Virus genome (UHGV): UHGV-1806156
Origin: a virus
DNA: 13,526 bases
Strand: one strand, 5' to 3'
Under the pieces are notes generated by a model, which saw only the letters and a program-made list of their open reading frames with translations, did not search any database and was not told the DNA's origin. The position numbers and the translations under genes are program-made. Positions 1 to 13,526 of this stretch are shown piece after piece. Each line of letters begins with the position of its first letter. The stretch's first letter is position 1.

Positions 1-98
1 TAAGGGAAAAGCTTAACCCACAAATGAAAGCCTAAAGAGCATGAGCGACTCTTTAGGCAATCTGTGTGGGGAACATCGGAGCAGTATGTGAAGTATGA
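1..98. repeat. Left copy of a 98-bp direct repeat (same as 13429-13526)
   Basis: Positions 1-98 match 13429-13526 base for base except one T/C difference (position 54 vs 13482). The repeat runs to both window edges, so its full extent is unknown. Confidence 0.9.
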
Positions 99-437
99 GC
101 AGACTGTGATGATGTGACTTATATCTATGCGTATAACAGCCTCCGCTGTTTACGCTCTTTGTGTGGGTCCGGCGAATGCGTCAGCATGAGGCCCACAATG
201 TGGACCGCTGCCGAAAGCTTGCCAGCGCCGGAAGGAGGCAGCAAAGAGTCTCCCGCGCGCATGTGTGGGCGTATACGTAAGATATACATTCATAAATCCA
301 ATTCTAGGCCCATAAATGGCCTTCTGGCTGCATTAACTAGTGTGAGTAGTGCAATTGCATTACCTGACCTCTAAATCGCGTTAGAATTGATTTTAGAGCG
401 CCTAAGGCAAAAAGTGCTCTCCCTCCCTTGTGGGCCA

Positions 438-467
438 TTGACAATCTTATTGCATAAATGCTATAAG
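438..467 (+). promoter_or_regulatory. Sigma70-like promoter candidate (-35 TTGACA 438-443, 18-bp spacer, -10 TATAAG 462-467)
   Basis: Hexamers read directly; one of five ATTGACAAT-type sites in 437-765. Confidence 0.3.
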
Positions 468-566
468 TGATTTTGGTTTTGACACGGTAGGGGCCATTAA
501 TAATGCTTACCCCTTTGCTGTGGACTTGCTTGTACATATAGCATACCTAAATGATAATAATTCTCA

Positions 567-595
567 TTGACAATTGGTTGACAATATGATAAGAT
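567..595 (+). promoter_or_regulatory. Sigma70-like promoter candidate (-35 TTGACA 567-572, 17-bp spacer, -10 TAAGAT 590-595)
   Basis: Hexamers read directly; a second TTGACA at 578-583 overlaps it. Sits upstream of the sORF at 631. Confidence 0.3.
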
Positions 596-630
596 TATAA
601 ATAGGGGGAGAAACAGATCCGGAGGTCAAT

Positions 631-780
631 GTGGAAATTACTGATGCAATAGCGATCATCAACCTGGCTGTACTGTGGTGCGGTGTTGCCTACATAGCCG
701 GAGTGACTGCAATCGACAATCTTGAAGAAAAAATGATAGATAAATACAAAAAGATTGTTGACAATTTGACGAATGTCTGA
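631..780 (+). CDS. Small ORF, 49 aa, GTG start, predicted single transmembrane helix (VEITDAIAIINLAVLWCGVAYIAGVTAIDNLEEKMIDKYKKIVDNLTNV)
   Basis: GGAGG at 621-625 sits 5 nt before GTG 631, stop TGA at 778-780. Hydrophobic N-terminal stretch. Below the 60-aa cutoff of the ORF track. Confidence 0.3.
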   Translation: MEITDAIAIINLAVLWCGVAYIAGVTAIDNLEEKMIDKYKKIVDNLTNV

Positions 781-786
781 TAAAAT
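758..786 (+). promoter_or_regulatory. Sigma70-like promoter candidate (-35 TTGACA 758-763, 17-bp spacer, -10 TAAAAT 781-786), likely driving the operon starting at 913
   Basis: Near-consensus hexamers with 17-bp spacing, about 125 bp upstream of ATG 913. Confidence 0.45.
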
Positions 787-912
787 ATAAAGCATAGGGT
801 AATTCTCATCATAGTGAATTTCCTTTAGTAGACTGGCGGGGGCTTGTCTTAAGTTCCCGTTTCTTTTTAATCATATATCGCACAGGTTAGTGAGCTGACA
901 GGAGATTGAATC

Positions 913-1128
913 ATGGCTAAAACCGGACCGATAAGCCAGCTGGTAAACTGGACTACTGACGAAATCGTCGAGAACGTGCTTAAAGGTAACTTTCGAAAAA
1001 CTTCCGTTTATGCATTTATTCGTAAACACAAAGGAGAATATCCACACATTGAAGCGGCAATTTTAGAACTGAATCGTCTCCGCCTTGAGCGTGAGCTGGC
1101 TAAATACACCAACAACATTAATAAATAA
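913..1128 (+). CDS. Hypothetical small protein, 71 aa
   Basis: ORF with AGGAGA RBS 7 nt upstream of ATG 913; first gene after a long non-coding region. No recognisable family. Confidence 0.55.
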   Translation: MAKTGPISQLVNWTTDEIVENVLKGNFRKTSVYAFIRKHKGEYPHIEAAILELNRLRLERELAKYTNNINK

Positions 1129-1141
1129 CTGTGGGGGAACT

Positions 1142-2038
1142 ATGGCAAGTAATTACGGGGAGGTTTTTAATCCCCATTTCGAACGCCTCATTCAGTATAC
1201 TTTTGATAAACCAGTTGCAACAACAATTGCTAATAAAAAGACTGGAAAAACAAAAGAAAGATTTAAGTTAGACCTGACGGAGGTTACAATTTATGGAAAA
1301 ATGGCAGGTTTTCATTTAAACGGGCAAGAAATATTTATCTCAGAGCAGACCTTAGCAAAAATATGTGGAGTGAGCGATAGAAAAATCCGTGATTCGATTA
1401 AATCTCTAGAAAATGCCGGGCTTATTTCTAAAGATAATCGGAAAGGCATGTCTAATATTTACAAACTACTAATTACTCCTTCACAGGTTTGCAAAATGTG
1501 TGACGCTCAAGGAATACAACCTATGAGCAATGCAGGTGGTGAAGATAAACAGCCTCAGGAAGCCCCAAAACAAGCCGCACAGCAAGCTAAAAAGGCTAAA
1601 GTAGTGCAATTGCCTACCCAAGACACTAAAGCGCCTCAAATTAACGCTGTTAGTGACAAGCCACGCCGGGGCCGTCCTGTGAAAGATGTAACCGATGGAG
1701 GGTGGATCGCCCTGGGTGAGAGTGAGGCTAAAGGCATAATGCGATCACTGTGGGAAAGCAAATACAAAGATTTAAACAAACGTCGCCCGATCCTTTTGTC
1801 AAAGATTCAGGAGGATTTTTACACCACAGAAGAGGTAAGCCGACATAAAGGGAAAATAGAGGGTGAAATCTGGAAACCGGAAGAATACTGGCATTTAACC
1901 AGACCTGTGTTTATTTTTGCAAATAAGCTTATTGGGATGGGATTTGAAATATTGTTAGATAAAACCTGCGGAGATTATCCCGAAATATTGTGGAGAAATG
2001 TTAGAAAAAATAAAAAAGGCATTTTAGAGTTTAAATAA
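1142..2038 (+). CDS. Putative replication initiator-like protein with winged helix-turn-helix, 298 aa
   Basis: ATG at 1142 preceded by GGGGGA RBS, right after the stop of the 913 ORF; the track's 1085 start is an upstream in-frame extension. The segment FISEQTLAKICGVSDRKIRDSIKSLENAGLISKDNRKG resembles the wHTH of phage and plasmid replication initiators. Function from motif recognition only. Confidence 0.45.
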   Translation: MASNYGEVFNPHFERLIQYTFDKPVATTIANKKTGKTKERFKLDLTEVTIYGKMAGFHLNGQEIFISEQTLAKICGVSDRKIRDSIKSLENAGLISKDNRKGMSNIYKLLITPSQVCKMCDAQGIQPMSNAGGEDKQPQEAPKQAAQQAKKAKVVQLPTQDTKAPQINAVSDKPRRGRPVKDVTDGGWIALGESEAKGIMRSLWESKYKDLNKRRPILLSKIQEDFYTTEEVSRHKGKIEGEIWKPEEYWHLTRPVFIFANKLIGMGFEILLDKTCGDYPEILWRNVRKNKKGILEFK

Positions 2039-2085
2039 AAACACTGATAATCTTATTTTTTACAGTATTCTAAAGGAAATTTAAA

Positions 2086-2232
2086 ATGTATGGCGATTTT
2101 GATTATTACCTGGAAAAGGAAAAATATTTTGAAGATGAACTATCACAACATTTTTCATATTGGGAAGAATATTGTGGTTGGTTAGCTGAAGATCCAGCAG
2201 ATGAAGAAAACGATTCTGACATCCCTTATTGA
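2086..2232 (+). CDS. Small acidic ORF, 48 aa (MYGDFDYYLEKEKYFEDELSQHFSYWEEYCGWLAEDPADEENDSDIPY)
   Basis: ATG 2086 with AAGGAAA RBS about 6 nt upstream, stop TGA 2230-2232. Strongly acidic and aromatic-rich. Below the ORF-track cutoff. Confidence 0.35.
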   Translation: MYGDFDYYLEKEKYFEDELSQHFSYWEEYCGWLAEDPADEENDSDIPY

Positions 2233-2316
2233 TATCCCCAAATAAACTAAATAAATAAACTAAGCACTAGAACTAGATTGATTGCCCTGATCTTTTAAAC
2301 GTTCGGAGAATTAATC

Positions 2317-2805
2317 ATGTTCAAATCTAATCTTTCTGATTCTCAATTCGAAAAACTGGTAGCACTGCAGAAATATCTTCCCAGTGATGATCAACCAACA
2401 CGACAGGCTAAACACTTATTAGTCGAGGGCTTTACCCCTGAATTCGTGGCGGAATATACAGGCGTTAAACTTGATAAAGTCCAAAAACTATATAATGAGT
2501 CCTGGAATCCACGGTGTCGAGTTCCCCTCAGTGTCTATAACGACATAGATAGAGATAAAAATGTCTTCGAAGATCGCCGCCGCAAATCTCTTTTAATGTG
2601 GAATTGTGGGATGAATATTGAAGAGATAGCAAAAGAATTAAAAGTAACCTGCTTTCATATATGGGGCTTGTTGAGTGAAATCCTGCCACGTAAGGAGCTT
2701 AATCAACGTTTGCCTAAGCCCGGTAGTCGTGCTTATCGCGAATTTATATTCATCTACCGCCGCCATAGAAATAAAGTCCAGAAAGCAATGGCCCAGAAAG
2801 CTTGA
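2317..2805 (+). CDS. Putative DNA-binding regulator with two HTH-like segments, 162 aa
   Basis: GGAGA RBS before ATG 2317. Two segments with HTH character: GFTPEFVAEYTGVKLDKVQKL and GMNIEEIAKELKVTCFHIWGLL. Confidence 0.5.
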   Translation: MFKSNLSDSQFEKLVALQKYLPSDDQPTRQAKHLLVEGFTPEFVAEYTGVKLDKVQKLYNESWNPRCRVPLSVYNDIDRDKNVFEDRRRKSLLMWNCGMNIEEIAKELKVTCFHIWGLLSEILPRKELNQRLPKPGSRAYREFIFIYRRHRNKVQKAMAQKA

Positions 2806-2878
2806 GTTTTATCTCTTCGATTTATTTATTTTCGACTCACTTTAACCCCTTCCGGGGCTCTAATTTAAGGAATTCCAA

Positions 2879-3322
2879 ATGTCTCAAATCGCTAAATTAT
2901 TATCCCAGGTTATCAAAGCTATCGACGCTGAAGATTCAAAAGTTCGCCAGGATCTTTTAGATGGCAAGTTTACCAACACCCTGGCATTTACCCGTGACAA
3001 AGAGCACTTCTTAAAACACAGGCATCACGCTTTTCCTGAATGCAAGTCCGCTAATGGTGATGTTTTCTATGTCGATTTGGTGGTTATGGCATGTAGGCTG
3101 TGGATGATTCAGGACCTTATGCGCCAACACGGTGATGATCCTCTTATCAGCATGTGGAACAGCGCCCAGGATGGCTTTGTGATTGCTGCCTTATCCAAAT
3201 CAATGATTGAGGCAGAAGGGGCAAGCCTTCAGAACATGGCAGATCTCTTTGAAATAAGCGTAGGAATGATGCAGACCATGCTCCAAGCTGTCAAACCTCT
3301 CAAACTGGTTAATCTTGATTAA
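2879..3322 (+). CDS. Hypothetical protein, 147 aa
   Basis: AAGGA RBS before ATG 2879; no recognisable family. Confidence 0.55.
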   Translation: MSQIAKLLSQVIKAIDAEDSKVRQDLLDGKFTNTLAFTRDKEHFLKHRHHAFPECKSANGDVFYVDLVVMACRLWMIQDLMRQHGDDPLISMWNSAQDGFVIAALSKSMIEAEGASLQNMADLFEISVGMMQTMLQAVKPLKLVNLD

Positions 3323-3382
3323 GCTATTGATAAATAAGCACTCCCCATTTTTTGGGGGGTGCATCAATGAGAGGATATGCCT

Positions 3383-3766
3383 ATGAATATTGAAGAAATG
3401 ATAGTTGAATTCGAAGAGGGTGATTTCCTGGAAGAAGGGGAGTTTAGTTACTCCCATTTTAAACAGGCGTTATTTAGCAGCGATGATAAACCACACGTTA
3501 GTGATCTTAACGACGATGATTTATGTCGTTGGGTATGCACCCGCTTAAATGAAGATGGAAAGTATACAGGCCAAAACTTTCCAAATCTCTATTTCAAAGC
3601 ACAAACATTTGAGGAAGGGCAAAGAGTGAAAAACCTGGTCGATAAAATGCTGTCAGCCGGATATTTGCATAAAGAATTATTAAATCCTAAAGCTGAAAGC
3701 AAGCGCCATTATATTTTTGTGTGGACTATTGGCGATAAGTGTCCACTAAGACGCAAAGGCAAATGA
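3383..3766 (+). CDS. Acidic protein, 127 aa; possible tail assembly chaperone by position
   Basis: GAGAGGA (3369-3375) is 7 nt before ATG 3383; the track's ATG 3377 is too close to the RBS. Acidic N-terminus and position two genes upstream of the tape measure gene. Function is positional inference only. Confidence 0.4.
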   Translation: MNIEEMIVEFEEGDFLEEGEFSYSHFKQALFSSDDKPHVSDLNDDDLCRWVCTRLNEDGKYTGQNFPNLYFKAQTFEEGQRVKNLVDKMLSAGYLHKELLNPKAESKRHYIFVWTIGDKCPLRRKGK

Positions 3767-3767
3767 T

Positions 3768-4004
3768 ATGAATACCTACGAAAAGATTTATCAAAAACTG
3801 GTTAAGGACTCCGAAGACACGCCCGAAGGGGTGACAGTAGGTCACCTGCCAGAGGCAGCGAAAGAGGGGGCCACCATTATTAAAAGTGGCTCCCACACAG
3901 AAGGCCTCTCAATCGAAGAGCTGGCGGAGAAATATAATATTGATAAAGAGGCCCTGAAAAGGGCTATTTCATTATCAAAATCTTTAAGACAGGGCGAGGT
4001 ATAA
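3768..4004 (+). CDS. Hypothetical protein, 78 aa, translationally coupled between the acidic protein and the tape measure gene
   Basis: Starts 1 nt after the preceding stop and ends 1 nt before ATG 4006. Confidence 0.45.
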   Translation: MNTYEKIYQKLVKDSEDTPEGVTVGHLPEAAKEGATIIKSGSHTEGLSIEELAEKYNIDKEALKRAISLSKSLRQGEV

Positions 4005-4005
4005 A

Positions 4006-6153
4006 ATGGCAATGAAGGAAGTAGCCAGACTAACAAACGTTATTTACTGGGACTCTGATAAATCCTCCTGGCGAAAAGAAGTTAAACGGCTTGAGGATTA
4101 TAAAAAATCCTGGAAGAAAGCTACCGACGATATAGCTAAAGCTGATTTTAAATCTAATCAGGCTGTGCTCAGAACACAAAGAACACGCGCTAAGGTGGAA
4201 GAGCAGATAGCCAGAGCTCAGAGGAAACAACAGGAAGCACAGAAGAAACAACGTGCTCAGGCTGTCAGCCGTCTGACCGGGGGCAACAATGCCGAACTTA
4301 ACTCTATGCGCAAGTTCTACCAACAACAAGCCAGAGAAGCCGCCAGACAACAAAAACTGTTAGATCGTAGTGTTGGAGATGTTCAGCACAGAAAAGCACG
4401 TGTAGGGGCCAACAGTGCACGAATCAGCAGCATGTTTGATGGCTCCCTGGTTGCTCAGTTCCAGGGGCGCATTCAAAGAGTTAATGCTGATTATGCTAAA
4501 GGGGCTATAAACCTGCAGACCTATAATCAGAGGATGGCCCGACTCAGATCTGAAATGAAGATGGCAACAGCCGAAGCCGGAAAATTCCAGAGCAGACTAG
4601 ACAGAGCTGCGGCCGCAGGCTCCAGGCTGCATGACAACCTGGGGAAACTGAATTCCACACTGGGCAAGATAGCCATTGGCCTTACTGCCGCTGGCTGGGG
4701 TGTTCAGCGTGCTGTTAGTGGTGCTATGGGTAGCCTTGCAGATCGCAACAGTGCTTATTTCGGCTTAATGTCACAGAACAAGGATGATAAATCAAAAACT
4801 GATCAGCAGATGGCTTTTATCAAGAACACAGCCTACACCTACGGGATGGATCAGCGTGAGATGGAAGGCGGCTACATGCGCTTTGCTGCAGCTACCCCCA
4901 CCATGAAGGAATCTGATAAGCAGGCTCTCTTTGAGGCTATGGCTATTAAAGGCCGCTCAGTGGGTGCTACTGGCGAGCAACAGAACAGGGCGCTTGTTGC
5001 GGTCCAACAAATGGCTTCAAAAAATAAAGTCATGGCGGAGGAGCTGCGTGGGCAGCTGGCAGAAGCCTTTGCAGGCTCACAACAGGACTTCCAACAGGCC
5101 GCTATTGATGCCGGAATCATCAAAAATACCCAGGAATTCGATAAAGCCCTTAAAGATGGCAAAATCACCCTGGACAAGCTACTTCCTTCCCTAGTGAAAA
5201 TTTGGGGTGCTGCAAAAGAAACTAAAGCTTTTGCTGAATCCATGAAACAGCCAGAAGTAGCAATGCAGCGCATGAAAAACAGCTTTAACGAGCTGGCGAT
5301 TCAGTTTATGGGTGTTGTGGATCCTGCGGATGGCGTTATTAGCTTATCTGAATCTCTGATCTCCATCTTTGAAGACCTCACCACTGATATGGACGGCAGC
5401 GGGAGCGCGGCAAAACAGTTCGGTGAGGCAGTCGGGTCTGCCATGCGTGAGATCATGTATTGGGTAGGCTTCGCTAAGGGATATATTGAGGTCAAGGCTA
5501 AAGAGTTCGGCATGACCGGATCAGAGGTTGGCGAGCTTATCGGGAAACTGGTAGTCGGCTTAGCTGGTCTGAAAGTTATTACCACACTGCTTTCCCCTCT
5601 AACCGGATTTGTTTCACTTGTCACCCAACTGATTTCTCTGATAGGCAAGATTCCAGGTCTGGGCAATCTCGTTAAGGGTGCTGGCGGGGCAGTCGCTGGA
5701 AGCCCAACAACAGCATTAGCCGCTGGCAGTGCCGCAGGTGTGGGTGTTGGTGTCGCTGGCGCACTAGGCGCTAAGACGGTAGGTGAGAAGTTCAGAGGAT
5801 GGATGCAAAGCAAGGCTGATCAGTTCGGGGAGTGGGCTAAATCTAAAGGCCTGCTTAGCGATGAACAGGACGCTATGACCAAACCGGGGGCCTATAACCA
5901 TAGCTACATCAACAAGGGAGCTTCCTTTAATCCATATCCAACCATTAGCCCTTCACGTCCTACTCCTAGCACTGGTACGGCTATTCAGAATGGCGGATAT
6001 CAACCAGTCCAAGTAAATGTAGCCCCACAAGGTGAGATTTCCGGCAAATGGGAGATAACCATCGATGAGGGGGGAATTGCCAGGGTGATCCAGAAGGAAG
6101 TTAGCGATCAGTTGGATTGGAAAGCCACACAGGAATCTAACCAGCTTTTCTAA
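4006..6153 (+). CDS. Phage tail tape measure protein-like, 715 aa
   Basis: Long Q/R/K/A-rich helical N-terminal region, a central segment that reads like a tape-measure domain (AAATPTMKESDKQALFEAMAIKGRSVGATGEQQNRALVAVQQMASKNKVMAEELRGQLAEAF), and a Gly/Ala-rich hydrophobic block (LAGLKVITTLLSPLTGFVSLVTQLISLIGKIPGLGNLVKGAGGAVAG...). Recognised by eye, not by search. Confidence 0.6.
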   Translation: MAMKEVARLTNVIYWDSDKSSWRKEVKRLEDYKKSWKKATDDIAKADFKSNQAVLRTQRTRAKVEEQIARAQRKQQEAQKKQRAQAVSRLTGGNNAELNSMRKFYQQQAREAARQQKLLDRSVGDVQHRKARVGANSARISSMFDGSLVAQFQGRIQRVNADYAKGAINLQTYNQRMARLRSEMKMATAEAGKFQSRLDRAAAAGSRLHDNLGKLNSTLGKIAIGLTAAGWGVQRAVSGAMGSLADRNSAYFGLMSQNKDDKSKTDQQMAFIKNTAYTYGMDQREMEGGYMRFAAATPTMKESDKQALFEAMAIKGRSVGATGEQQNRALVAVQQMASKNKVMAEELRGQLAEAFAGSQQDFQQAAIDAGIIKNTQEFDKALKDGKITLDKLLPSLVKIWGAAKETKAFAESMKQPEVAMQRMKNSFNELAIQFMGVVDPADGVISLSESLISIFEDLTTDMDGSGSAAKQFGEAVGSAMREIMYWVGFAKGYIEVKAKEFGMTGSEVGELIGKLVVGLAGLKVITTLLSPLTGFVSLVTQLISLIGKIPGLGNLVKGAGGAVAGSPTTALAAGSAAGVGVGVAGALGAKTVGEKFRGWMQSKADQFGEWAKSKGLLSDEQDAMTKPGAYNHSYINKGASFNPYPTISPSRPTPSTGTAIQNGGYQPVQVNVAPQGEISGKWEITIDEGGIARVIQKEVSDQLDWKATQESNQLF

Positions 6154-6204
6154 TATTGTGATCAAAATCAATAAGTTAGCCTGACCGGATAAACTCCAGG
6201 CAAG

Positions 6205-6242
6205 AAAAAAGCCCCTAAGTGTTAACAAAGGGGCTCTTCTCC
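6205..6242. terminator. Hairpin terminator between convergent operons (stem AGCCCCT 6210-6216 / AGGGGCT 6229-6235)
   Basis: 7-bp GC-rich stem with 12-nt loop. On the minus strand it is followed by a run of six T (plus-strand A 6205-6210); on the plus strand by a weaker T-rich tract. Confidence 0.5.
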
Positions 6243-6266
6243 GGTATCCTTTTGATGCGGGGCGAA

Positions 6267-6310
6267 CCTGCTAACAAAAATCAACCTCTCGCGAGACTAA
6301 TGTTAGCAGG
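6267..6310. other. Stem-loop with perfect 10-bp stem (CCTGCTAACA / TGTTAGCAGG) whose 24-nt loop carries TCAACCTCTCGCGAGA
   Basis: Inverted repeat read directly. The loop contains the 10-bp palindrome TCTCGCGAGA and matches the leader motif at 10547 and 11089. Confidence 0.4.
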
Positions 6311-6655
6311 TTGCCGGAAGGTAAGTCAACTCCGGCCTATAAACCTTAAAGCGACTATAAAATCGCCCCGCCAATTGTGATGATCCGACCTTTGAGGCGG
6401 GTCCGGTGCCCAGGGGGGTGCAGTGATGCACAAACCAGGCAACGATAAACAGGCTAACAGTGATAGCGGCGCTCTCTCAGCGCACTAAATCCTAACCAGT
6501 CCGGGAAAGAGGCTGGCTCTATCGACCGCTCATGCACGGGACAATGCATACCTGATAAAGGATTCTCACAAGGGACCAATCGCGAGAAAAAGAAGTGGAA
6601 AGGGGCTGATTTGTGGTGTATCACTACGGCCTCAAAAGAACACTATTGTCTTTTT

Positions 6656-7114
6656 TCAGCCTCTCCCAACATTTGACCAGTATTTGATTGCACCGATCAA
6701 ATCATCATAGTGGCGCATTGCATCATTGAAGCCTTTATAGCTTGCCCATTGTGGGGAAACCTTGTTATTGCTGAATTGCCCACTAATCAGGATAGTCTCC
6801 AGAATGTCGGCATATCGCTTACCAATACGCTTTCTGACGGCCTCAGAGCTCCCACCCTTTACGATTGCATTAATCAGGGCTTTTGTGTGTCTCAGGCTCT
6901 CATAGAGCATTGCAGCGTGGGCAGATTCCATAAAGGAGCGCTTAGGCAAATCACCCCACCCCTCAGAGTGGATAGCCGCCAGTGTGGCGTAATTCAGGCC
7001 GCTATAGTGCTTTCCGTCATCCCAGCCAACCGCTACACCTTCCATCTGTGAGAGCTCTTTATGCAGCTTATCCATCATGCGCTTGTCTATGGTGCAACGG
7101 ACTTTCGGACTCAT
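6656..7114 (-). CDS. HK97 gp10-like head-tail (neck) family protein, 152 aa
   Basis: Segment GVAVGWDDGKHYSGLNYATLAAIHSEGWGDLPKRSF fits the pattern I associate with the HK97 gp10 family. GGAG RBS upstream; ATGA overlap with the preceding gene. Confidence 0.45.
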   Translation of the reverse strand: MSPKVRCTIDKRMMDKLHKELSQMEGVAVGWDDGKHYSGLNYATLAAIHSEGWGDLPKRSFMESAHAAMLYESLRHTKALINAIVKGGSSEAVRKRIGKRYADILETILISGQFSNNKVSPQWASYKGFNDAMRHYDDLIGAIKYWSNVGRG

Positions 7115-7914
7115 TTGTTGATCTCCGTGATGTCATCAAGCAACATGTTGGCCTTATCAATCATCGTTTCGTGGAATTCATTCGACACAACAGACTTATC
7201 ACCTGCGGCAATCTTTCCAGCTGCCTCTCCCTGTGCATATTCCCCGCGATGCTTAGCCCTGGTAGATTTCGTAGCAGCATTGCCAGCGTTACTACCCTCT
7301 TTAGCACTGTTAACAGCACCCTTTTGCTGTGTTTTATTCACCTTCTTACTGTTAGTGAAAACTCCGGCATTTTCGACCATCTTCACCTTGAAGGTGCGGA
7401 ATTCTTCAAAGGTGCAATCGATAGTGATGCAGTCACCGGAGGAAGAGCTACGCTTAACTTCACATTTCGTCATGATGAAGTTCTCAAGGAGTCCGGCATC
7501 TTCACTCACCAGGCTAACCAGCTGGCGCTTGTCTCTCATTTCCATAAGTGCCTGAACAGCGGCAGCAGGGCGCATAGATTCACGGGGATTATCTGGATCA
7601 GTGTTCCGGTCGATGTAGTTCTCTTTCCGGATAATGTGAGGGGAAGAGGTAATAATACCCGTAAAGCTGACAGATTTATCTTTAATGACGGCATGGTCTG
7701 ACATGGTGGTGCCATCTTCTACTGCATAGCTCGACTTTTCGACAGGGAACGAATAACGAACATCAGAGATAGAGTCAAAGAAGATAGCCACATTATCGGT
7801 ATAGTTGAAGCCATCCATTATATTTTTGTTTTGTGAATATCCCCCACACATAACAGTGAATGCGGGAGATCTCGACTCAGCTTGTTTTGCAGCTGTCAGA
7901 GCATCACTAGCCAT
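7111..7914 (-). CDS. Hypothetical protein, 267 aa (start placed at the ATG at 7914)
   Basis: Minus ORF 7111..7941 begins at a GTG; the in-frame ATG at 7914 has GGAGG 10 nt upstream. Normal amino-acid composition, unlike the Cys/Ser/Leu-rich plus-strand ORFs it overlaps. Confidence 0.55.
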   Translation of the reverse strand: MASDALTAAKQAESRSPAFTVMCGGYSQNKNIMDGFNYTDNVAIFFDSISDVRYSFPVEKSSYAVEDGTTMSDHAVIKDKSVSFTGIITSSPHIIRKENYIDRNTDPDNPRESMRPAAAVQALMEMRDKRQLVSLVSEDAGLLENFIMTKCEVKRSSSSGDCITIDCTFEEFRTFKVKMVENAGVFTNSKKVNKTQQKGAVNSAKEGSNAGNAATKSTRAKHRGEYAQGEAAGKIAAGDKSVVSNEFHETMIDKANMLLDDITEINK

Positions 7915-8042
7915 AGTAAACATGCCTCCAAATTGGTCCACTTCATGGATTTGGCTAAAGCCAAACCTGCAAAAGATGCAGGCAAAATAGAACTTATCGT
8001 TGCCCTGCGTGAATTCTGATAAAAAGACAGGGCTATCTATCG

Positions 8043-8303
8043 TTATTTTGCAAAACGATTATGCGCATTCAGGGCTTTTTTGCGGTCCTGGGCTTGTTTG
8101 CGTGCAATAAAATGTTCGAAAGTCTCGGCCCAGGTGCATTTATTATATTCACGGTATTTATGCATAGCCTGGCGGCTAACGTCATAGCAGGCGGCAAATG
8201 TGGAGATACGCAGGAATTCCGGCAGATCCTCGTCATCGATATGGATAATATCAAAAGGCACGTCGTCACGGTCGCCGTATAAAACAATTTTCATAAAAGA
8301 CAC
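8043..8303 (-). CDS. Small HTH DNA-binding protein, 86 aa
   Basis: GAGGTG RBS upstream of ATG 8303. HTH-like segment LRISTFAACYDVSRQAMHKY. Role unknown. Confidence 0.5.
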   Translation of the reverse strand: MSFMKIVLYGDRDDVPFDIIHIDDEDLPEFLRISTFAACYDVSRQAMHKYREYNKCTWAETFEHFIARKQAQDRKKALNAHNRFAK

Positions 8304-8327
8304 CTCAAAAACTTAAGACGGGGATAA

Positions 8328-8377
8328 CAAAAAAGGGAAGAGGGAAAGACCTATCCCCGATCTCTCACCTCTTCCCT
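8328..8377 (-). terminator. Hairpin terminator just downstream of the capsid gene (stem AGGGAAGAGG 8334-8343 / CCTCTTCCCT 8368-8377)
   Basis: 10-bp stem followed on the minus strand by a T run (plus-strand A 8328-8333), immediately after the capsid stop at 8384-8386. Confidence 0.45.
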
Positions 8378-8383
8378 TTGCTT

Positions 8384-9418
8384 TTATTTAGCCTTGGCAG
8401 CGGCGGCGGTGTTTTTAACACTCACTTTCACCACAACTTCAGGCATCATGTTCATGAAAGCATAAGAGGATTCAACGAAGATTTCGCGTTTGCCTCTGGA
8501 CTCTTCCATATACATGAAAGCTTCACGTGCAGCGCCGTTTGCCAGCTTCAGGTTGCGAGCGCAAGGGCCGAAAAATTGAGTATAAACGCCCACCATATCG
8601 CCTAACGCATGCGGCTGGAACTGTGGGACTAGATAAGCAGTATTCTCTGGCAGACTATCCATTTGCACCACACGCAGGGCTAAGCCCGGAATGCGGAAGG
8701 TCGGGAAGCCCGGCAGAATATCCTCAGGGAACATCAGACCTTTGTCGGTAATGTTCTGATTGCCGAACAACAGCACTTTACGGAGCAGTTCATCAGTCTG
8801 AATAGCGGTAAACAGTTCAGCACGGCAGAACAGGGTGAAACCACGCAGGGCACGAACGACACCACGCTGTTTAACCTTGCTCAGTGCAACCAGGTCCTGC
8901 AGCTGTTTAAGGATATCTTTAGCTAGATCCACTTCTGAAGTGGTTTGCTGTGCGCCCAGCAGTTCGCACACATTCAGTTCTTTACCCTTGGTGAGGATAA
9001 TTTTGTTCTCAAAGAGAGCAAGCTGGCGTGCTTCTTCGTGGGTCTGGCGTAAGCCTTCGCCAAGCTGAATAACACGACGAGCGGTTACAGACTCTAGATT
9101 CTCTTCGGAATCTTTGCCCGGAACACGGATACCCTGCCAGTCAGAAGGATAAATAGCACTTGATGCGGCAGTGAATGCCATATCACCCGTGCCCGTTTCA
9201 CGCTCATCTGCGGTAATGGTCGCCATCTGTTCACCGTAGCGCGGATACTGACCGAAAGCGGTTTGTTTCACCTGGCGAACTTTGTCATATTCAAATTTAA
9301 AGGTATTGCACAGAGCAGTAGTGTTGAAGATATCCATTGCAGAAATAATCATGTTATCCGGCGGGATATCTTTAATCAGACCACACAGATCGCGAACTTC
9401 GAATTCTTTCTTAGCCAT
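8384..9418 (-). CDS. Major capsid protein, lambda gpE family-like, 344 aa
   Basis: ATG at 9418 with AAGGAGG RBS 8 nt upstream; the track's extension to 9517 has no RBS. N-terminus FEVRDLCGLIKDIPPDN fits the L-x-G-x-[IV]-x-x-x-PP pattern seen in gpE-family capsids. Size (lambda gpE is 341 aa) and a small beta-rich gene directly upstream agree. Confidence 0.6.
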   Translation of the reverse strand: MAKKEFEVRDLCGLIKDIPPDNMIISAMDIFNTTALCNTFKFEYDKVRQVKQTAFGQYPRYGEQMATITADERETGTGDMAFTAASSAIYPSDWQGIRVPGKDSEENLESVTARRVIQLGEGLRQTHEEARQLALFENKIILTKGKELNVCELLGAQQTTSEVDLAKDILKQLQDLVALSKVKQRGVVRALRGFTLFCRAELFTAIQTDELLRKVLLFGNQNITDKGLMFPEDILPGFPTFRIPGLALRVVQMDSLPENTAYLVPQFQPHALGDMVGVYTQFFGPCARNLKLANGAAREAFMYMEESRGKREIFVESSYAFMNMMPEVVVKVSVKNTAAAAKAK

Positions 9419-9429
9419 TTTCAACCTCC

Positions 9430-9765
9430 TTATTGTGCAACACGCAAATCGCCATTGCTGGCAGCAACAACAGCGGCTAAGCCGTCTTTGTCCACATAGG
9501 CCGGATTGATGTAGCAACCTTTGTTCGCAACAACGATAAAGGAATCACCAACTTCAGCACGTTCTACAACCAGCAGCGGAGTTTTATCTGTGTGCGTTGC
9601 TTTAACGAAGGTCTCAACCTCGCCAGCCTCAGTCACCACAACAACAGTGCCAGCCGGAATCTCAGCCTTAACTTTGTTTTTAACTTCAACGTCGCGAATA
9701 CTAAATTGCTCATCTGCGGCGTATGAAATGATGTGTCCGCGTGTGCGGATAGTCATATCTCTCAT
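9430..9765 (-). CDS. Putative head decoration protein (lambda gpD-like), 111 aa
   Basis: AGGTGA RBS before ATG 9765. Small, beta-rich (Val/Thr/Ala/Gly), immediately upstream of the capsid gene as in lambda D-E. Assignment is positional and compositional. Confidence 0.4.
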   Translation of the reverse strand: MRDMTIRTRGHIISYAADEQFSIRDVEVKNKVKAEIPAGTVVVVTEAGEVETFVKATHTDKTPLLVVERAEVGDSFIVVANKGCYINPAYVDKDGLAAVVAASNGDLRVAQ

Positions 9766-10093
9766 TTGATCACCTGCGATTTAAATTAACTCCCCTCAAA
9801 GGGCTCAGGTATAACCTCTCAAACCACGACAGGCTCGGGCCGAAAAGTTATGCCGGAAATCTAAAGGGGGATTGATATAAGGAGAGGGAGATAGCCCCGC
9901 ACCGTCCAAGCGGGGGCTATTCCACATGGGGAAACCAACAACAGTTGGCTGATAGTTCACTGCATGGTTACAGGTTGCTAGAGAGCACTATCACGAAAGG
10001 CACTCCCCCGGATCAGTTCAGGCTGCGGTCACATCAGCGGGGAAATACCTTTCGGGATAGCTACCCACACAGAAAACCCGCAAAAGAAAACTG

Positions 10094-10102
10094 TGTGGAT
10101 AA
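10094..10102 (-). promoter_or_regulatory. DnaA box (TTATCCACA on the minus strand) inside an inverted repeat (CCACACAG 10065-10072 / CTGTGTGG 10091-10098)
   Basis: Exact 9-mer match to the DnaA box consensus, read directly. Confidence 0.35.
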
Positions 10103-10248
10103 CTAGCCCTGTAGGGAGAATAAGGAGAATTAATCGACCACTCTAAGATGATCATGGGTAGTGTTATTTATAAGGCGGCACCGCTACCTGGTCGCCTTTA
10201 CTTTGGAGGAAAATACGGCAAATCACCTTCGCTAAATGATTCACGGTA

Positions 10249-10268
10249 TACTGTATATTATATCAGTA
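10249..10268. promoter_or_regulatory. LexA (SOS) box-like palindrome TACTGTATATTATATCAGTA
   Basis: CTG-N10-CAG architecture with flanking TA and an AT-rich core, as in gammaproteobacterial LexA boxes. Lies in the large intergenic region between the capsid operon and the small-peptide operon. Confidence 0.45.
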
Positions 10269-10546
10269 TTTACTCACATTGTCAACACCCTGATTATATA
10301 AATTCTAATAATTAGCGTAGTAACGGTATTTTCAGACTGCTATCAATCCCATCAATACGTCATCTCATCGCATCTATCATAACTTTTTCATTCGTGATAG
10401 ATATCTTTTGATCAATATCAATGTTTTCCGGGGATTTGCCCGGCTATAGTTCGAATCAAGGAAGGGGAGCATTGATAGAGACACCCAAAGGGGTGACTGA
10501 AAGTCACCTGGCATAGCCAGTGAAAGCACCCAACCGAACAAACAAA

Positions 10547-10564
10547 TCAACTTCTCGCAAAAGG
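10547..10564 (+). promoter_or_regulatory. Conserved leader motif TCAACTTCTCGCAAAAGG, 26 nt upstream of ATG 10573
   Basis: Repeated with the same spacing upstream of ATG 11115 (11089-11107); a third variant sits in the hairpin loop at 6281-6296. Confidence 0.4.
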
Positions 10565-10572
10565 TGATAGTT

Positions 10573-10695
10573 ATGGGTATCAAGAACAGTGCCAGCGCAT
10601 GGCAAAAGGCCAGGTTTCATCACCCACACATTGTTAAGGCAATTGAGGTGGTTGGAGTTTTAGCCCTGATGTTAGCTCTGTGTGTGGAGGTGTGA
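10573..10695 (+). CDS. Small hydrophobic peptide, 40 aa (MGIKNSASAWQKARFHHPHIVKAIEVVGVLALMLALCVEV)
   Basis: AAGGTG RBS before ATG 10573; C-terminal hydrophobic helix. Below the ORF-track cutoff. Confidence 0.35.
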   Translation: MGIKNSASAWQKARFHHPHIVKAIEVVGVLALMLALCVEV

Positions 10696-10696
10696 G

Positions 10697-10777
10697 ATGG
10701 GCAAAGGAGGCAAAGCATTTTTAATAGGTCTGGCTATCCTGGATGTTCTACTAATCATGATTAAGCGGAGTTTATGA
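10697..10777 (+). CDS. Small hydrophobic peptide, 26 aa (MGKGGKAFLIGLAILDVLLIMIKRSL)
   Basis: ATG 10697 starts 1 nt after the previous stop, with AGGTG just upstream. One predicted TM helix and a basic C-terminus. Confidence 0.3.
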   Translation: MGKGGKAFLIGLAILDVLLIMIKRSL

Positions 10778-10796
10778 ACAGCATTGAGAGGAGTTT

Positions 10797-11057
10797 ATGA
10801 CGGGGGCTAAAGATATCAGGAGACTGAGGGAAGAGCTGATAGCTGAAATTAAAACTAAGGCAAAGCAAATGGAGATAGCCGCACAAATGGATGTAGCGGA
10901 ACAGATGTACAAGATGGTTGAGGAGGGAACGCCACGACAGGTTATCGCTAAAACCTTCGGTGTGGGGATCGCCACCGTGCACAGAAGGCTGAAAGCATAT
11001 GCTGACTACCACAATATCGAGAGAAAGGAGGATGGGAGATTCAGGAAAGCTAAATGA
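10797..11057 (+). CDS. Small DNA-binding protein with a Hin/resolvase-type C-terminal HTH, 86 aa, no recombinase catalytic domain
   Basis: GAGAGGAG RBS before ATG 10797. C-terminus EEGTPRQVIAKTFGVGIATVHRRLKA closely matches the Hin invertase HTH; the N-terminus is a short charged helix only. Confidence 0.55.
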   Translation: MTGAKDIRRLREELIAEIKTKAKQMEIAAQMDVAEQMYKMVEEGTPRQVIAKTFGVGIATVHRRLKAYADYHNIERKEDGRFRKAK

Positions 11058-11088
11058 TGTAAACGGTCCAACAGGTTACTAACTTAAT

Positions 11089-11107
11089 TCAACTTCTCGC
11101 AAAGGGG
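11089..11107 (+). promoter_or_regulatory. Second copy of the leader motif (TCAACTTCTCGCAAAGGGG), 26 nt upstream of ATG 11115
   Basis: 15/15 identity with the copy at 10547 over TCAACTTCTCGCAAA, same distance to the start codon. Confidence 0.4.
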
Positions 11108-11114
11108 TACCACT

Positions 11115-11702
11115 ATGAACATTAAAACTATCATTGCAGCCCTCACCATTGCCTTTAGTGCCAACACCGCAGCTATTGATGTAGGGGCCGTAAAAGATGC
11201 ATCTTGTGCTGATAAACTGGCGGCACTTGATGCGGGATTCGATGCACCCCAGGGCTATCAAATGGGGCTATCTCTTAAAAATATTATTCTCCCCATGGAA
11301 TCTGGCGCTTATGTATACGGAGCGATAGGAAAACTGGAGAAGCCGGAAATTGACCTGCAGGGTGTGAGAGCGAAGATCACTAAAAGAAATGAAAGCCTTT
11401 GTGATGTAGCTGAAATAGCTTTCATGTCAGACGATGAAAAATCTATTTTAGTCTTTTGCAAAGATAGCGATGATAATGATCGCTTCTTTAAGATCACCCA
11501 CAACAGGCCAATCTCTTTCTACTCTAATGCTACTATGGGCGCGGGTATGCAGTGGCTGAAGAGAGCTAAATTAACTGAGATCGACATTGAAAAAGAGGCC
11601 AATGCAGGCAGTTATGGATTCTGGAAAGGCTGGACTAAATACACGTTCCAACAATGCGGCATCGATAGTCAGGCCTACGACAACGGATTTTGGTTTTTCT
11701 AA
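11115..11702 (+). CDS. Secreted or outer-membrane protein with N-terminal signal peptide, 195 aa
   Basis: N-terminus MNIKTIIAALTIAFSANTAA has the basic/hydrophobic/A-x-A shape of a Sec signal peptide. C-terminus ends in aromatics (GFWFF), as many outer-membrane beta-barrels do. No family recognised. Confidence 0.55.
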   Translation: MNIKTIIAALTIAFSANTAAIDVGAVKDASCADKLAALDAGFDAPQGYQMGLSLKNIILPMESGAYVYGAIGKLEKPEIDLQGVRAKITKRNESLCDVAEIAFMSDDEKSILVFCKDSDDNDRFFKITHNRPISFYSNATMGAGMQWLKRAKLTEIDIEKEANAGSYGFWKGWTKYTFQQCGIDSQAYDNGFWFF

Positions 11703-11722
11703 CCTACTAAGTTAATCCCGCC

Positions 11723-11750
11723 AGGGGGCCATCACGGCCCCTTTTTATTT
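11723..11750 (+). terminator. Rho-independent terminator after the signal-peptide gene
   Basis: GC-rich stem GGGGGCC (11724-11730) / GGCCCC (11736-11741) with 5-nt loop, followed by TTTTTATTT. Confidence 0.55.
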
Positions 11751-11800
11751 ATCCCCTATTTAACCCCTATTTAATGGGTATTTAATGCCTATTTATTGAT
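11746..11800. repeat. Five tandem 11-bp units of form TATTTAANNNN (helically phased A/T tracts)
   Basis: TATTTATCCCC, TATTTAACCCC, TATTTAATGGG, TATTTAATGCC, TATTTATTGAT read directly; an 11-bp period suggests bent DNA or phased binding sites. Confidence 0.5.
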
Positions 11801-13063: not shown

Positions 13064-13341
13064 CCGGAAGATTTTTCCGGTGTCTCCCACCTGTGAAGAA
13101 TTTTCACACCTGTAAATCCATACAGCACGGTAAAAACTACCGCACCACCTGTGAAAATATTTTACTACTCCCTTTAGTCATACCCCTTTCAGTCATACTC
13201 AGGCACCACACCCCGGTAAATATTTCCCTACCACCCCGGAGAATTTCTCCGGTGTCCAAGCTGTATCCAATACATACCCCGGAAAATTTCTCCGCACTAC
13301 TACGGAAGATTTCTCCGGTGTACCCCGGAAGATTTCTCCGA
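13064..13341. repeat. Iteron-like array of at least 8 copies of a 17-bp quasi-palindrome (consensus about CCGGARRATTTCTCCGG)
   Basis: Copies at 13064-13080, 13236-13252 (perfect palindrome CCGGAGAATTTCTCCGG), 13279-13295, 13302-13318 and 13325-13341, the last three spaced exactly 23 bp apart. Related variants at about 13094-13108, 13150-13164 and 13214-13226. Confidence 0.6.
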
Positions 13342-13428
13342 CTAATAAATAAAGTAATAGACCACACAATAGATCCCCCCTAACCCCCAAGGGGAATGGG
13401 GAGGGATCAGAGAGTGGGGAAGGTTTTC

Positions 13429-13526
13429 TAAGGGAAAAGCTTAACCCACAAATGAAAGCCTAAAGAGCATGAGCGACTCTTCAGGCAATCTGTGTGGGGA
13501 ACATCGGAGCAGTATGTGAAGTATGA
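13429..13526. repeat. Right copy of the 98-bp direct repeat
   Basis: Matches 1-98 with one mismatch (C at 13482 vs T at 54). Confidence 0.9.

What the first reader, a model, noticed from the sequence alone, without database searches (positions are those of the whole stretch)
2086..2232. Unannotated 48-aa highly acidic sORF between the replication-like gene and the HTH regulator
It has a good RBS and an extremely acidic, aromatic-rich sequence. Small acidic proteins in phages and satellites are often DNA mimics or anti-defence factors, or bind helper repressors. It would be missed by length filters.
Basis: inference. Interest (0 to 1): 0.4.

Follow-up and report, generated by a model that had tools for sequence, protein, structure and literature searches.

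The report
Acidic microprotein partnering a plasmid initiator
A real, conserved 48-residue acidic protein sits just after the replication initiator of a small phage-satellite-like E. coli plasmid, and its free C-terminal tip (…DSDIPY) resembles the docking peptide of bacterial SSB (…DDDIPF), so it most likely helps recruit replication proteins and is probably not a DNA mimic.

Summary
The ORF at 2086-2232 (+) is real. It has an AAGGA ribosome-binding site 8 nt upstream and encodes 48 aa, with 16 D/E, 2 K and 12 aromatic residues. It is not unannotated in relatives: RefSeq lists the identical protein as WP_001682500.1, 'hypothetical protein'. It holds the same slot (initiator, sORF, 162-aa gene) in at least 25 related 13.3-14.4 kb E. 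coli plasmids. It has no indels while both flanks are indel-rich, and dN/dS is 0.10 against the most divergent 48-aa allele. AlphaFold2 predicts one helix (residues 3-34) and a disordered acidic tail. The only distant homologue (71 aa) has a 23-residue longer linker but still ends in VPY. Relatives with an alternative initiator lack the sORF, and that initiator itself ends in an acidic, aromatic tail, …NDSAIPY. A third group has an unrelated 52-54-aa acidic protein in the slot, ending …DDDYYDEDY. My best reading (confidence about 0.38) is an initiator-associated acidic tail, free or fused, whose tip works like the SSB C-terminal peptide to dock host or helper replication proteins. This mechanism is inferred, not shown. 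DNA-mimic or anti-defence roles remain possible but have no specific support. I rate it a new variant of a known kind, of moderate interest.

The parts
2086..2232 (+). sORF coding sequence (48 codons plus TGA). The protein is identical to RefSeq WP_001682500.1.
   Evidence: It has no indels across 15 aligned relatives while the flanks are indel-rich. dN/dS is 0.10 against L003.
2073..2077 (+). Shine-Dalgarno-like AAGGA, 8 nt upstream of the ATG
   Evidence: Read directly from the sequence. An AAGGAA-type site is kept in relatives, including those carrying the unrelated type C small ORF.
2092..2187 (+). Codons 3-34: predicted single alpha-helix rich in aromatic and acidic residues (DFDYYLEKEKYFEDELSQHFSYWEEYCGWLA)
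   Evidence: AlphaFold2 predicts helix 3-34, with block pLDDT of 73-81. This is the part conserved in the 71-aa homologue P0003. Amphipathicity is only modest: muH is 0.23, and 7% of shuffles reach it.
2188..2229 (+). Codons 35-48: disordered acidic tail EDPADEENDSDIPY. The tip NDSDIPY occupies 2209-2229.
   Evidence: pLDDT is 51-57 with no secondary structure. The terminal [IV]-P-Y is kept in P0002, in P0003 (with a linker 23 aa longer) and at the end of the type B initiator.
2199..2232 (+). Stretch where DNA homology with type B elements resumes. In those elements the last ~10 codons of the sORF are read as the C-terminus of the alternative initiator.
   Evidence: blastn of the window against L015: homology runs over 2199-3748 of the window and 3058-4644 of L015.
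1142..2038 (+). Replication initiator (Rep, 298 aa from the ATG at 1142): winged-helix N-domain, disordered linker (about residues 130-180) and C-terminal domain (181-298)
   Evidence: PF13730 is above its cutoff and PHROG O-like initiator families match. Foldseek gives weak hits to RepA_N-type initiator N-domains 4pql, 4pt7 and 5kbj (E about 0.02).
2317..2805 (+). Downstream 162-aa gene of the same operon, function unknown. The 'HTH' label rests on sub-threshold hits only.
758..786 (+). Promoter-like site (TTGACA-17-TAAAAT with a TG extension, 11 of 12 matches) upstream of the + strand gene run 913-6153 that contains Rep and the sORF
   Evidence: No terminator-like site lies between Rep and the sORF.

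Best explanation
The sORF encodes a 48-residue accessory protein of the plasmid's replication initiator. It consists of one aromatic and acidic helix followed by a flexible acidic tail, and the free C-terminal tip of that tail (-Asp-Ser-Asp-Ile-Pro-Tyr-COOH) is the working part. [quoted passage not shown] In that model the terminal aromatic side chain and the alpha-carboxylate dock into a hydrophobic pocket with a basic rim on a replication protein. The partner would be a host SSB-interacting protein (such as PriA, DnaG primase or the chi subunit of the clamp loader) or the equivalent in the helper phage. Docking would bring that factor to the initiator-bound origin. The same acidic tail comes in interchangeable formats in this plasmid family: a free microprotein (types A and A'), a tail fused to an alternative initiator (type B), or an unrelated small acidic protein that also ends in Tyr (type C). 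Shown here: the gene is real, is under selection and is fixed in position. The helix-plus-disordered-tail layout is an AlphaFold2 prediction. The [IV]-P-Y terminus is conserved, and the free and fused forms never occur together in the elements checked. Inferred: that the tip is a docking peptide, what it binds, and that the result is recruitment and not inhibition.
For: 1. The gene is real and selected. It holds the same slot in at least 25 relatives and has no indels although both intergenic flanks and the 3' end of Rep are mosaic and indel-rich. Against L003 there are 13 synonymous and 11 non-synonymous differences, dN/dS = 0.10, Fisher p about 1e-6.
2. The layout fits a tethered peptide: helix 3-34 followed by a low-confidence acidic tail 35-48.
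3. The tip is the constrained feature. A HMMER search of 1.84 billion representative proteins found only one distant homologue, P0003 (71 aa). Its linker is 23 residues longer and unrelated in sequence, yet it still ends in …CVPY.
4. There is a free-or-fused relationship with the initiator. In type B elements (L015, L028) the sORF is absent, the gap from Rep to the next gene is 88 nt, and the alternative initiator lacks the usual C-terminal domain. All 18 full-length type B sequences that I read end in …YDEDEY[NS]PFEDEY[TI]NDSAIPY, even though these proteins fall to about 70% identity elsewhere. They come from 44 full-length clusters in the search.
5. The slot is functionally conserved. Type C elements carry an unrelated protein there (BLASTP E = 4.3) of 52-54 aa that ends …FDDDYYDEDY.
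6. The identical type A protein accompanies Rep alleles that are only 42-46% identical to each other. That fits a conserved host or helper partner better than a co-evolving element-encoded one.
7. The SSB tip (DFDDDIPF) is defined by a terminal aromatic residue, a free carboxylate, a penultimate Pro and preceding Asp residues (PMC10164576). The sORF tip shares Ile-Pro-aromatic-COOH and Asp at positions -3 and -5 from the terminal Tyr (Tyr = 0).
8. A candidate helper phage (Vequintavirus MaxTheCat) encodes a non-Pfam 408-aa protein that ends in the canonical …FDDDIPF, so this peptide is also used in that phage.
Against: No binding or genetic data exist, so the mechanism is inference from sequence. 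Seven points weaken it.
1. The terminal residue is Tyr, not Phe, and I found no data on whether SSB-tip pockets accept Tyr.
2. The A' tip (NCDCVPY) replaces two of the Asp residues with Cys, and type C ends in EDY with no Pro, so the family-wide common feature is only 'acidic tail plus terminal Tyr'.
3. The fused tail of type B shares DNA-level homology with the last 34 nt of the sORF. The fusion could therefore be a recombination product and not an independent 'Rosetta stone', although the tail is then kept unchanged across diverged type B proteins.
4. dN/dS between the window and the A' allele over the first 35 codons is about 0.8, based on 3.2 synonymous and 15.8 non-synonymous differences. 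The helix is therefore not uniformly constrained.
5. Helix amphipathicity is not significant.
6. There is no evidence that the sORF protein contacts Rep, and sORF types and Rep C-terminal domain alleles are shuffled relative to each other.
7. There is a cautionary precedent: the purported SSB-like motif of DdrB turned out not to be needed for radioresistance (PMC3834827).
Confidence: 0.38

Rival explanations
1. The protein is a negative regulator of the initiator. The acidic protein, or the fused tail, would bind the DNA-binding winged-helix domain of Rep as a DNA-like competitor and limit origin firing and copy number. Known parallels are the SSB and T7 gp2.5 tails folding back on their own DNA-binding domains.
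For: The charge is extremely negative. The gene lies immediately downstream of Rep in the same operon. A fused version exists on an initiator, which would act as an autoinhibitory tail. The self-binding of acidic tails in SSB-type proteins is established knowledge (my own knowledge).
Against: The identical type A protein goes with Rep N-domains and C-terminal domains that are only 42-46% identical. Conservation of a specific terminal [IV]-P-Y is not needed for simple charge mimicry. No structural or co-variation evidence for a contact with Rep was obtained.
Confidence: 0.15
2. The protein is directed at the helper phage. It would bind a protein of the rV5-like helper, for example the helper's replisome through its SSB-tip pockets. 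The outcome would be either diversion of helper replication to the satellite or interference with helper replication.
For: The element carries homologues of Vequintavirus structural proteins: Dit-like protein 50% identical, tail-completion-like protein 45%, and TMP and MCP 24% each. This makes it a candidate satellite of these phages. The phage itself encodes a protein ending in FDDDIPF, so its replication proteins plausibly read that peptide.
Against: The helper relationship is itself only inferred from homology. The element is maintained as a plasmid without any helper in all 7 complete genomes that carry it, so the initiator module must work with host factors. Nothing here distinguishes host targets from helper targets.
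Confidence: 0.15
3. The protein is a DNA mimic or anti-defence protein. A small acidic helical protein would block a restriction enzyme, RecBCD or another DNA-binding defence protein, in the manner of Ocr, ArdA or T7 gp5.9.
For: Size, charge and predicted helicity are compatible with this. The gene lies in an early-looking operon of a mobile element. A non-homologous acidic protein occupies the same slot in type C elements, and such turnover is typical of counter-defence genes.
Against: There is no similarity to any known family or structure. The tail is fused to the initiator in type B elements and the free gene is then absent, which is hard to explain for a diffusible anti-defence factor. 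The most conserved feature is a C-terminal peptide, not a surface charge pattern.
Confidence: 0.12
4. The ORF is not a functional protein: it is a chance ORF, or its conservation reflects a cis-acting DNA or RNA element.
For: The ORF is short and the region AT-rich. Most 48-aa alleles are nearly identical, which could partly reflect recent common ancestry or recombination. The window-to-A' comparison gives dN/dS of about 0.8.
Against: Only 2.4% of shuffles give such an ORF. The RBS is conserved. 14 of the 25 differences from L003 fall at third codon positions and dN/dS is 0.10. The frame is kept in the 71-aa variant despite a 69-nt insertion. No other frame is open in both alleles. There is no Rfam match.
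Confidence: 0.04

Closest known systems
[quoted passage not shown]
   Same: Both have a disordered acidic tail ending at the very C-terminus in Asp-Ile-Pro-aromatic, preceded by a flexible linker of variable length. The motif is portable: it is found on different carriers within this family.
   Different: The terminal residue is Tyr, not Phe, and there are fewer Asp residues (D-S-D here, C-D-C in the A' variant). The carrier has no OB fold or ssDNA-binding domain, being a 48-aa helix or a winged-helix initiator. No binding has been demonstrated.
Acidic C-terminal tails of phage T7 gp2.5 (SSB) and gp4 (helicase-primase), which end in an aromatic residue and dock on T7 DNA polymerase (my own knowledge)
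   Same: Both follow the principle of an acidic tail plus a terminal aromatic residue used to couple replication proteins. Type C (…DDDYYDEDY) resembles this pattern more than it resembles SSB-Ct.
   Different: There is no sequence homology. The T7 tails end in Phe. The carriers there are large replication enzymes, not a microprotein.
Short linear motifs on plasmid initiators that recruit replisome parts, for example the beta-clamp-binding motif of RK2 TrfA (my own knowledge)
   Same: An initiator, or its small partner, carries a short peptide that would recruit a host replication factor to the origin.
   Different: The motif (QLSLF-type clamp motif) and its target differ. In TrfA the motif is internal to the initiator, whereas here it can sit on a separate 48-aa protein.
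Small acidic DNA-mimic inhibitors: T7 Ocr, ArdA, T7 gp5.9 (my own knowledge)
   Same: They are small, strongly acidic, at least partly helical, and encoded early by mobile elements.
   Different: There is no homology. DNA mimics act through a folded charge surface, usually as dimers, and not through a conserved C-terminal peptide. None is known to alternate with a tail fused to an initiator.
[quoted passage not shown]
   Same: It is a precedent for an SSB-like tip on a protein that is not SSB.
   Different: DdrB binds ssDNA, and its motif proved not to be needed for radioresistance. This warns that resemblance alone does not prove function.

Membership tests
SSB-Ct-type docking peptide (functional class, not a homologous family) | The motif lies at the extreme C-terminus with a free alpha-carboxylate | tested here: met
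   IPY is followed directly by the stop codon in the window, P0001 and P0002, and at the end of the type B Rep. P0003 ends in VPY.
SSB-Ct-type docking peptide (functional class, not a homologous family) | Terminal Phe preceded by Pro (Ile-Pro-Phe). Loss of the Phe, or a Pro-to-Ser change, abolishes binding (PMC10164576). | tested here: inconclusive
   Ile/Val-Pro is present, but the terminal residue is Tyr in every A, A' and B sequence. Type C lacks the Pro. I found no data on whether Tyr is accepted by SSB-tip pockets.
SSB-Ct-type docking peptide (functional class, not a homologous family) | A run of Asp residues just before Ile-Pro-Phe that contacts a basic ridge | tested here: inconclusive
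   The window has D-S-D with E-E-N upstream. Type B has D-S-A and A' has C-D-C. The region is acidic overall, but the Asp triplet is not kept.
SSB-Ct-type docking peptide (functional class, not a homologous family) | The tip is tethered by an intrinsically disordered linker of poorly conserved length and sequence | tested here: met
   AF2 gives pLDDT of 51-57 and no secondary structure for residues 35-48. The linker is 23 aa longer and unrelated in P0003.
SSB-Ct-type docking peptide (functional class, not a homologous family) | The peptide binds SSB-interacting proteins (PriA, chi, DnaG, RecQ, ExoI and others) | not testable with these tools
   This needs peptide-binding assays or complex prediction.
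SSB protein family (OB-fold ssDNA-binding proteins) | An OB-fold ssDNA-binding domain | tested here: not met
   The protein is 48 aa, predicted as a single helix, with no Pfam, NCBIfam or PDB match. It is not an SSB.
DNA-mimic anti-restriction proteins (Ocr, ArdA and similar) | Sequence or profile similarity to a known DNA-mimic family | tested here: not met
   There are no hits in Pfam, PHROGs, NCBIfam or PDB sequences, and tblastn against 50,697 phage records found nothing.
DNA-mimic anti-restriction proteins (Ocr, ArdA and similar) | A folded surface whose carboxylates mimic the B-DNA phosphate spacing, and inhibition of a DNA-binding enzyme | not testable with these tools
   The model is a single helix of moderate confidence (pLDDT 67.5, pTM 0.35). 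The oligomeric state and activity are unknown.
Lambda-O-like / HTH_36 replication initiators (the upstream gene, which sets the context of the sORF) | A winged-helix DNA-binding N-domain matching PF13730 and phage O-like initiator profiles | tested here: met
   PF13730 scores 30.9 bits (cutoff 25). PHROG 270, 391 and 678 match at E from 1e-10 to 3e-8. AF2 gives a winged-helix N-domain with weak Foldseek hits to RepA_N initiators.

The most novel reading that the evidence does not exclude
A detachable SSB-tip mimic. In this reading, a family of plasmid-borne satellites of virulent rV5-like phages equips its initiator with a portable acidic tail ending in [IV]-P-Y. The tail is either fused to the initiator or carried on a 48-71-aa microprotein. 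It would plug into the SSB-interaction pockets of host or helper replication proteins and so assemble a replisome at the satellite origin without an element-encoded helicase loader. That would be a new class of replication adaptor, and the first stand-alone SSB-Ct-like microprotein that I know of.
Probability: 0.25. Interest if true: 0.65.

Novelty: new variant of a known kind. Interest (0 to 1): 0.48.

Why it matters
If the tip really is read by SSB-interaction pockets, this would be a natural, minimal, genetically separable SSB-tip mimic. It would also show that mobile elements can move a hub-docking peptide between an initiator and a free microprotein. That bears on two questions: how small satellites and plasmids that lack a helicase loader assemble a replisome, and how peptide inhibitors of the SSB interactome, an antibacterial target, could be designed. 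It also gives a starting point for studying an apparently undescribed family of about 13.5 kb E. coli plasmids that carry capsid and tail genes related to rV5-like virulent phages. If the hypothesis fails, the result is still useful: this is a conserved orphan microprotein with three interchangeable formats, and its C-terminus is the obvious place to mutate first.

Tried and rejected
1. Homology searches for the sORF found nothing outside the family. The word-indexed search of 5.8 billion proteins gave 2 clusters. The exhaustive HMMER search of 1.84 billion representatives added only P0003. Pfam, PHROGs, NCBIfam and PDB sequences gave nothing meaningful; the best was FmlD at E = 0.15, judged chance. 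tblastn against the phage records and a scan of IMG/VR also found nothing.

2. Rep in IMG/VR: no relatives.

3. Megablast of the whole window against the phage collection: no match.

4. I looked for a fold assignment of the Rep C-terminal domain that might explain a partner for the sORF. Foldseek against the PDB matched only the winged-helix N-domain, and weakly.

5. Type A versus type C small proteins: no detectable similarity, so I treat them as analogues, not homologues.

6. Helix amphipathicity as evidence of a binding face: not significant, so I do not use it.

7. Literature searches for a stand-alone SSB-tip mimic, for SSB-like tails on initiators and for this plasmid family found no direct precedent. 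The library misses many subscription-journal papers, so this is weak evidence of novelty.

8. I considered and rejected other C-terminal or hub motifs from my own knowledge. The beta-clamp motif QL[SD]LF needs Gln and Leu, which are absent. The FtsZ C-terminal peptide (DIPAFL) shares D-I-P but is not terminal there and needs F-L after P-A. PDZ or DegS YxF signals do not fit because the protein has no signal peptide.

9. Rfam: no RNA family anywhere in the window.

Full report
**The observation**

The + strand of the window carries an ATG-to-TGA ORF of 48 codons at 2086-2232. It encodes MYGDFDYYLEKEKYFEDELSQHFSYWEEYCGWLAEDPADEENDSDIPY. An AAGGA motif at 2073-2077 lies 8 nt before the ATG. The protein has 16 Asp/Glu, 2 Lys, no Arg and 12 Phe/Tyr/Trp, with a calculated net charge of about -14 and pI of about 4.05. 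Only 2.4% of shuffles of the 278-nt gap between the flanking genes give a complete ATG ORF this long on that strand.

Two descriptors are not borne out:
- **"Unannotated".** RefSeq relatives annotate the identical protein as WP_001682500.1, hypothetical protein.
- **"HTH regulator".** This label for the downstream 162-aa gene rests only on sub-threshold hits.

The upstream gene is a credible initiator. It is 298 aa, counted from the ATG at 1142. PF13730 scores above its cutoff, PHROG O-like initiator families reach E = 1e-10, and AF2 gives a winged-helix N-domain, a disordered linker and a C-terminal domain.

**Context**

The window is essentially one copy of a circular plasmid of about 13.5 kb.
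- Seven of 5,426 complete E. coli genomes carry it, always as a plasmid and never in the chromosome. One record is a head-to-tail trimer.
- Hundreds of 13.3-14.4 kb contigs in draft assemblies from E. coli, Shigella and E. albertii encode its initiator variants.
- It carries a major capsid protein, a tape measure protein, a Dit-like 'tail tube initiator' and a tail-completion-like protein, but no terminase or portal.
- The last two proteins are 50% and 45% identical to proteins of rV5-like Vequintavirus phages.

The element therefore looks like a plasmid-borne phage satellite. The sORF lies in a + strand gene run from 913 to 6153, behind a strong promoter-like site at 758-786. There is no terminator-like site between Rep and the sORF.

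**Is it a real gene?**

Every relative with a standard Rep has a small ORF in this slot. In a 15-sequence DNA alignment the sORF is an island without a single indel. The 3' end of Rep upstream is mosaic, with three unrelated alleles, and both intergenic regions are full of indels.

The comparisons with more divergent alleles give mixed results:
- **Against L003, the most divergent 48-aa allele (81% identical protein).** There are 25 nucleotide differences, 14 of them at third codon positions: 13 synonymous and 11 non-synonymous. dN/dS is 0.10, and Fisher p on site counts is about 1e-6. No alternative frame is open in both alleles.
- **Against the 71-aa variant.** Over the first 35 codons dN/dS is about 0.8, from very few synonymous changes. 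Constraint on the helix is therefore not uniform.

Taken together, this is a protein-coding gene under selection.

**Anatomy and what is conserved**

AlphaFold2, run on a shallow 3-sequence alignment, predicts one helix (residues 3-34, pLDDT 73-81) and an unstructured acidic tail (residues 35-48, pLDDT 51-57).

An exhaustive HMMER search of 1.84 billion representative proteins found only one distant homologue, P0003 (71 aa). It sits in the same slot of 14.0 kb relatives. Its first 40 residues align with the sORF, its linker is 23 residues longer and unrelated, and it still ends in …NCDCVPY. The extreme C-terminus [IV]-Pro-Tyr is thus retained through a complete change of the linker.

**The link to the initiator**

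One complete-genome relative (L015, strain 190) lacks the sORF, and the gap from Rep to the next gene is only 88 nt. Its initiator is of a different type:
- It has a different winged-helix N-domain and the same Gln/Pro-rich linker motif.
- It lacks the roughly 100-aa C-terminal domain of the standard Rep.
- In its place it has an acidic, aromatic tail, …SEWWTPSENDYSGSGGYDPYGYDEDEYNPFEDEYTNDSAIPY.

DNA homology with the window resumes at 2199, inside the last ~10 codons of the sORF. The sORF's terminal codons are therefore read in frame as the initiator's C-terminus.

This 'type B' initiator is common. The search returned 44 full-length clusters, down to about 70% identity. All 18 that I read end in the same …YDEDEY[NS]PFEDEY[TI]NDSAIPY, although the middle of the protein is variable. 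A second type B element (L028, 76% identical) likewise has no separate sORF.

A third arrangement, type C (L020-L023, L027), has a standard Rep followed by an unrelated protein of 52-54 aa, MITLDLTDMVVSKEYLDDLATDKQTQEYYEHTAKDGYIAELRTFDDDYYDEDY. It too is acidic, aromatic-rich and ends in Tyr.

The slot next to the initiator therefore always supplies an acidic tail with a terminal Tyr, either free or fused.

**Mechanism proposed**

[quoted passage not shown] Its partners bury the terminal Phe in a hydrophobic pocket, hold the alpha-carboxylate with a basic lip, and contact the Asp residues with a basic ridge. Loss of the Phe, or a Pro-to-Ser change, abolishes binding (PMC10164576; PMC7145534 and PMC5872125, abstracts).

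The sORF tip, -Asn-Asp-Ser-Asp-Ile-Pro-Tyr-COOH on a disordered acidic linker, matches this pattern except for Tyr in place of Phe and fewer Asp residues. I therefore propose that the tail is a docking peptite-like element of the SSB-tip kind: a docking peptide that brings a host SSB-interacting replication protein, or the helper's equivalent, to the initiator.

Several observations fit this:
- The tail is fused to the initiator in type B elements.
- The element shows no recognisable helicase loader. This statement is weak, because three downstream genes have no known function.
- The identical type A protein accompanies Rep alleles only 42-46% identical, which suggests an invariant host or helper partner.
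- A candidate helper phage encodes a 408-aa protein of unknown function that ends in the canonical …FDDDIPF.

Every step after 'conserved C-terminal tip linked to the initiator' is inference.

**Weaknesses and rivals**

The weaknesses are these:
- Tyr is not Phe.
- The A' tip has Cys where SSB has Asp, and type C has no Pro.
- The fused tail shares ancestry with the sORF's 3' end, so the fusion may be a recombination product.
- There is no evidence that the sORF protein touches Rep.
- The purported SSB-like motif of DdrB proved not to be needed for radioresistance (PMC3834827).

The rivals, with my confidence in each, are:
1. An inhibitor of the initiator's own DNA-binding domain, for copy-number control (0.15).
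2. A factor aimed at the rV5-like helper's replication proteins (0.15). This overlaps with the main model and differs only in the target.
3. It is compatible with size and charge but has no specific support, and it is hard to reconcile with the fused form.
4. A non-functional ORF (0.04), contradicted by the comparative data.

**Comparison with known systems**

The protein is not an SSB: it has no OB fold and is only 48 aa. It belongs to no described family. It may work like the SSB tip, or like the acidic aromatic-ended tails of T7 gp2.5 and gp4. As an initiator-borne recruiting motif it would parallel the clamp-binding motif of RK2 TrfA (my own knowledge).

Three searches of the held library aimed at such precedents found no stand-alone SSB-tip mimic microprotein and no SSB-like tail on an initiator. 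That library is incomplete.

**Verdict**

The best-supported reading is an initiator-associated acidic tail protein with an SSB-tip-like docking peptide (confidence about 0.38). I rate it a new variant of a known kind, with interest about 0.48.

Noticed in passing
whole window (1-13526); relatives L001, L015-L017: The window is essentially one copy of a circular plasmid of about 13.5 kb, found only as a plasmid: 7 of 5,426 complete E. coli genomes, plus hundreds of 13.3-14.4 kb draft contigs from E. coli, Shigella and E. albertii. It carries a capsid gene and tail genes (TMP, Dit-like, tail-completion-like) but no terminase or portal. The Dit-like protein is 50% identical, and the 152-aa tail-completion-like protein 45% identical, to Vequintavirus (rV5-like) proteins; TMP and MCP are about 24% identical. 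It is a candidate plasmid-borne satellite of virulent rV5-like phages. Three literature searches found no description of it.
   Followed up: partly
window 13060-13349: An iteron-like array: six copies of a unit of about 23 nt (ACCCCGGAAGATTTCTCCGGTGT, with an internal CCGGA…TCCGG palindrome), mostly spaced 23 nt apart. It lies inside an ORF-poor stretch of about 2.7 kb (11703-13526 plus 1-900). It is a candidate origin or set of Rep-binding sites, or a packaging site.
   Followed up: no
L002 (NZ_CP043822.1, 39,610 bp): This 'plasmid' record is a head-to-tail trimer of the 13.2 kb unit, with three matching places and repeated identical protein accessions. It is either a true multimer or an assembly artefact.
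   Followed up: no
L030 23602-24828 (phage MaxTheCat MZ501094.1, bas57_0085): A 408-aa protein of unknown function (phrog_4477, no Pfam domain) in the candidate helper phage ends in the canonical SSB tip …AQYAFDDDIPF. It may be an unrecognised phage SSB or another carrier of the hub peptide.
   Followed up: partly
L020 5720-6220; L003 6797-7183; L025 964-1482; L027 1103-1489: Some relatives have an extra winged-helix gene (128, 166 or 172 aa) inserted just upstream of Rep. The 166-aa version is the N-domain of the type B initiator as a separate protein. The initiator region is highly modular.
   Followed up: partly
window 567-595 and 758-786: Two copies of a promoter-like direct repeat (TTGACAAT…GATAA[AG]AT). 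The second copy is an 11-of-12 sigma-70 match with a TG extension, just upstream of the operon that starts at 913.
   Followed up: no
window 11115-11702 (+): A 195-aa protein with a signal-peptide-like N-terminus (MNIKTIIAALTIAFSANTAA…) and no family match. Its length varies among relatives (173-233 aa). It sits after an 86-aa HTH_7-like gene (10797-11057). It could be a surface or exclusion function.
   Followed up: no
window 631-780 (+): A conserved 49-aa ORF, annotated in relatives as WP_157794903.1 or WP_157909277.1 (hypothetical protein), lies in the leader region upstream of the Rep operon. It is another small gene of unknown function.
   Followed up: no
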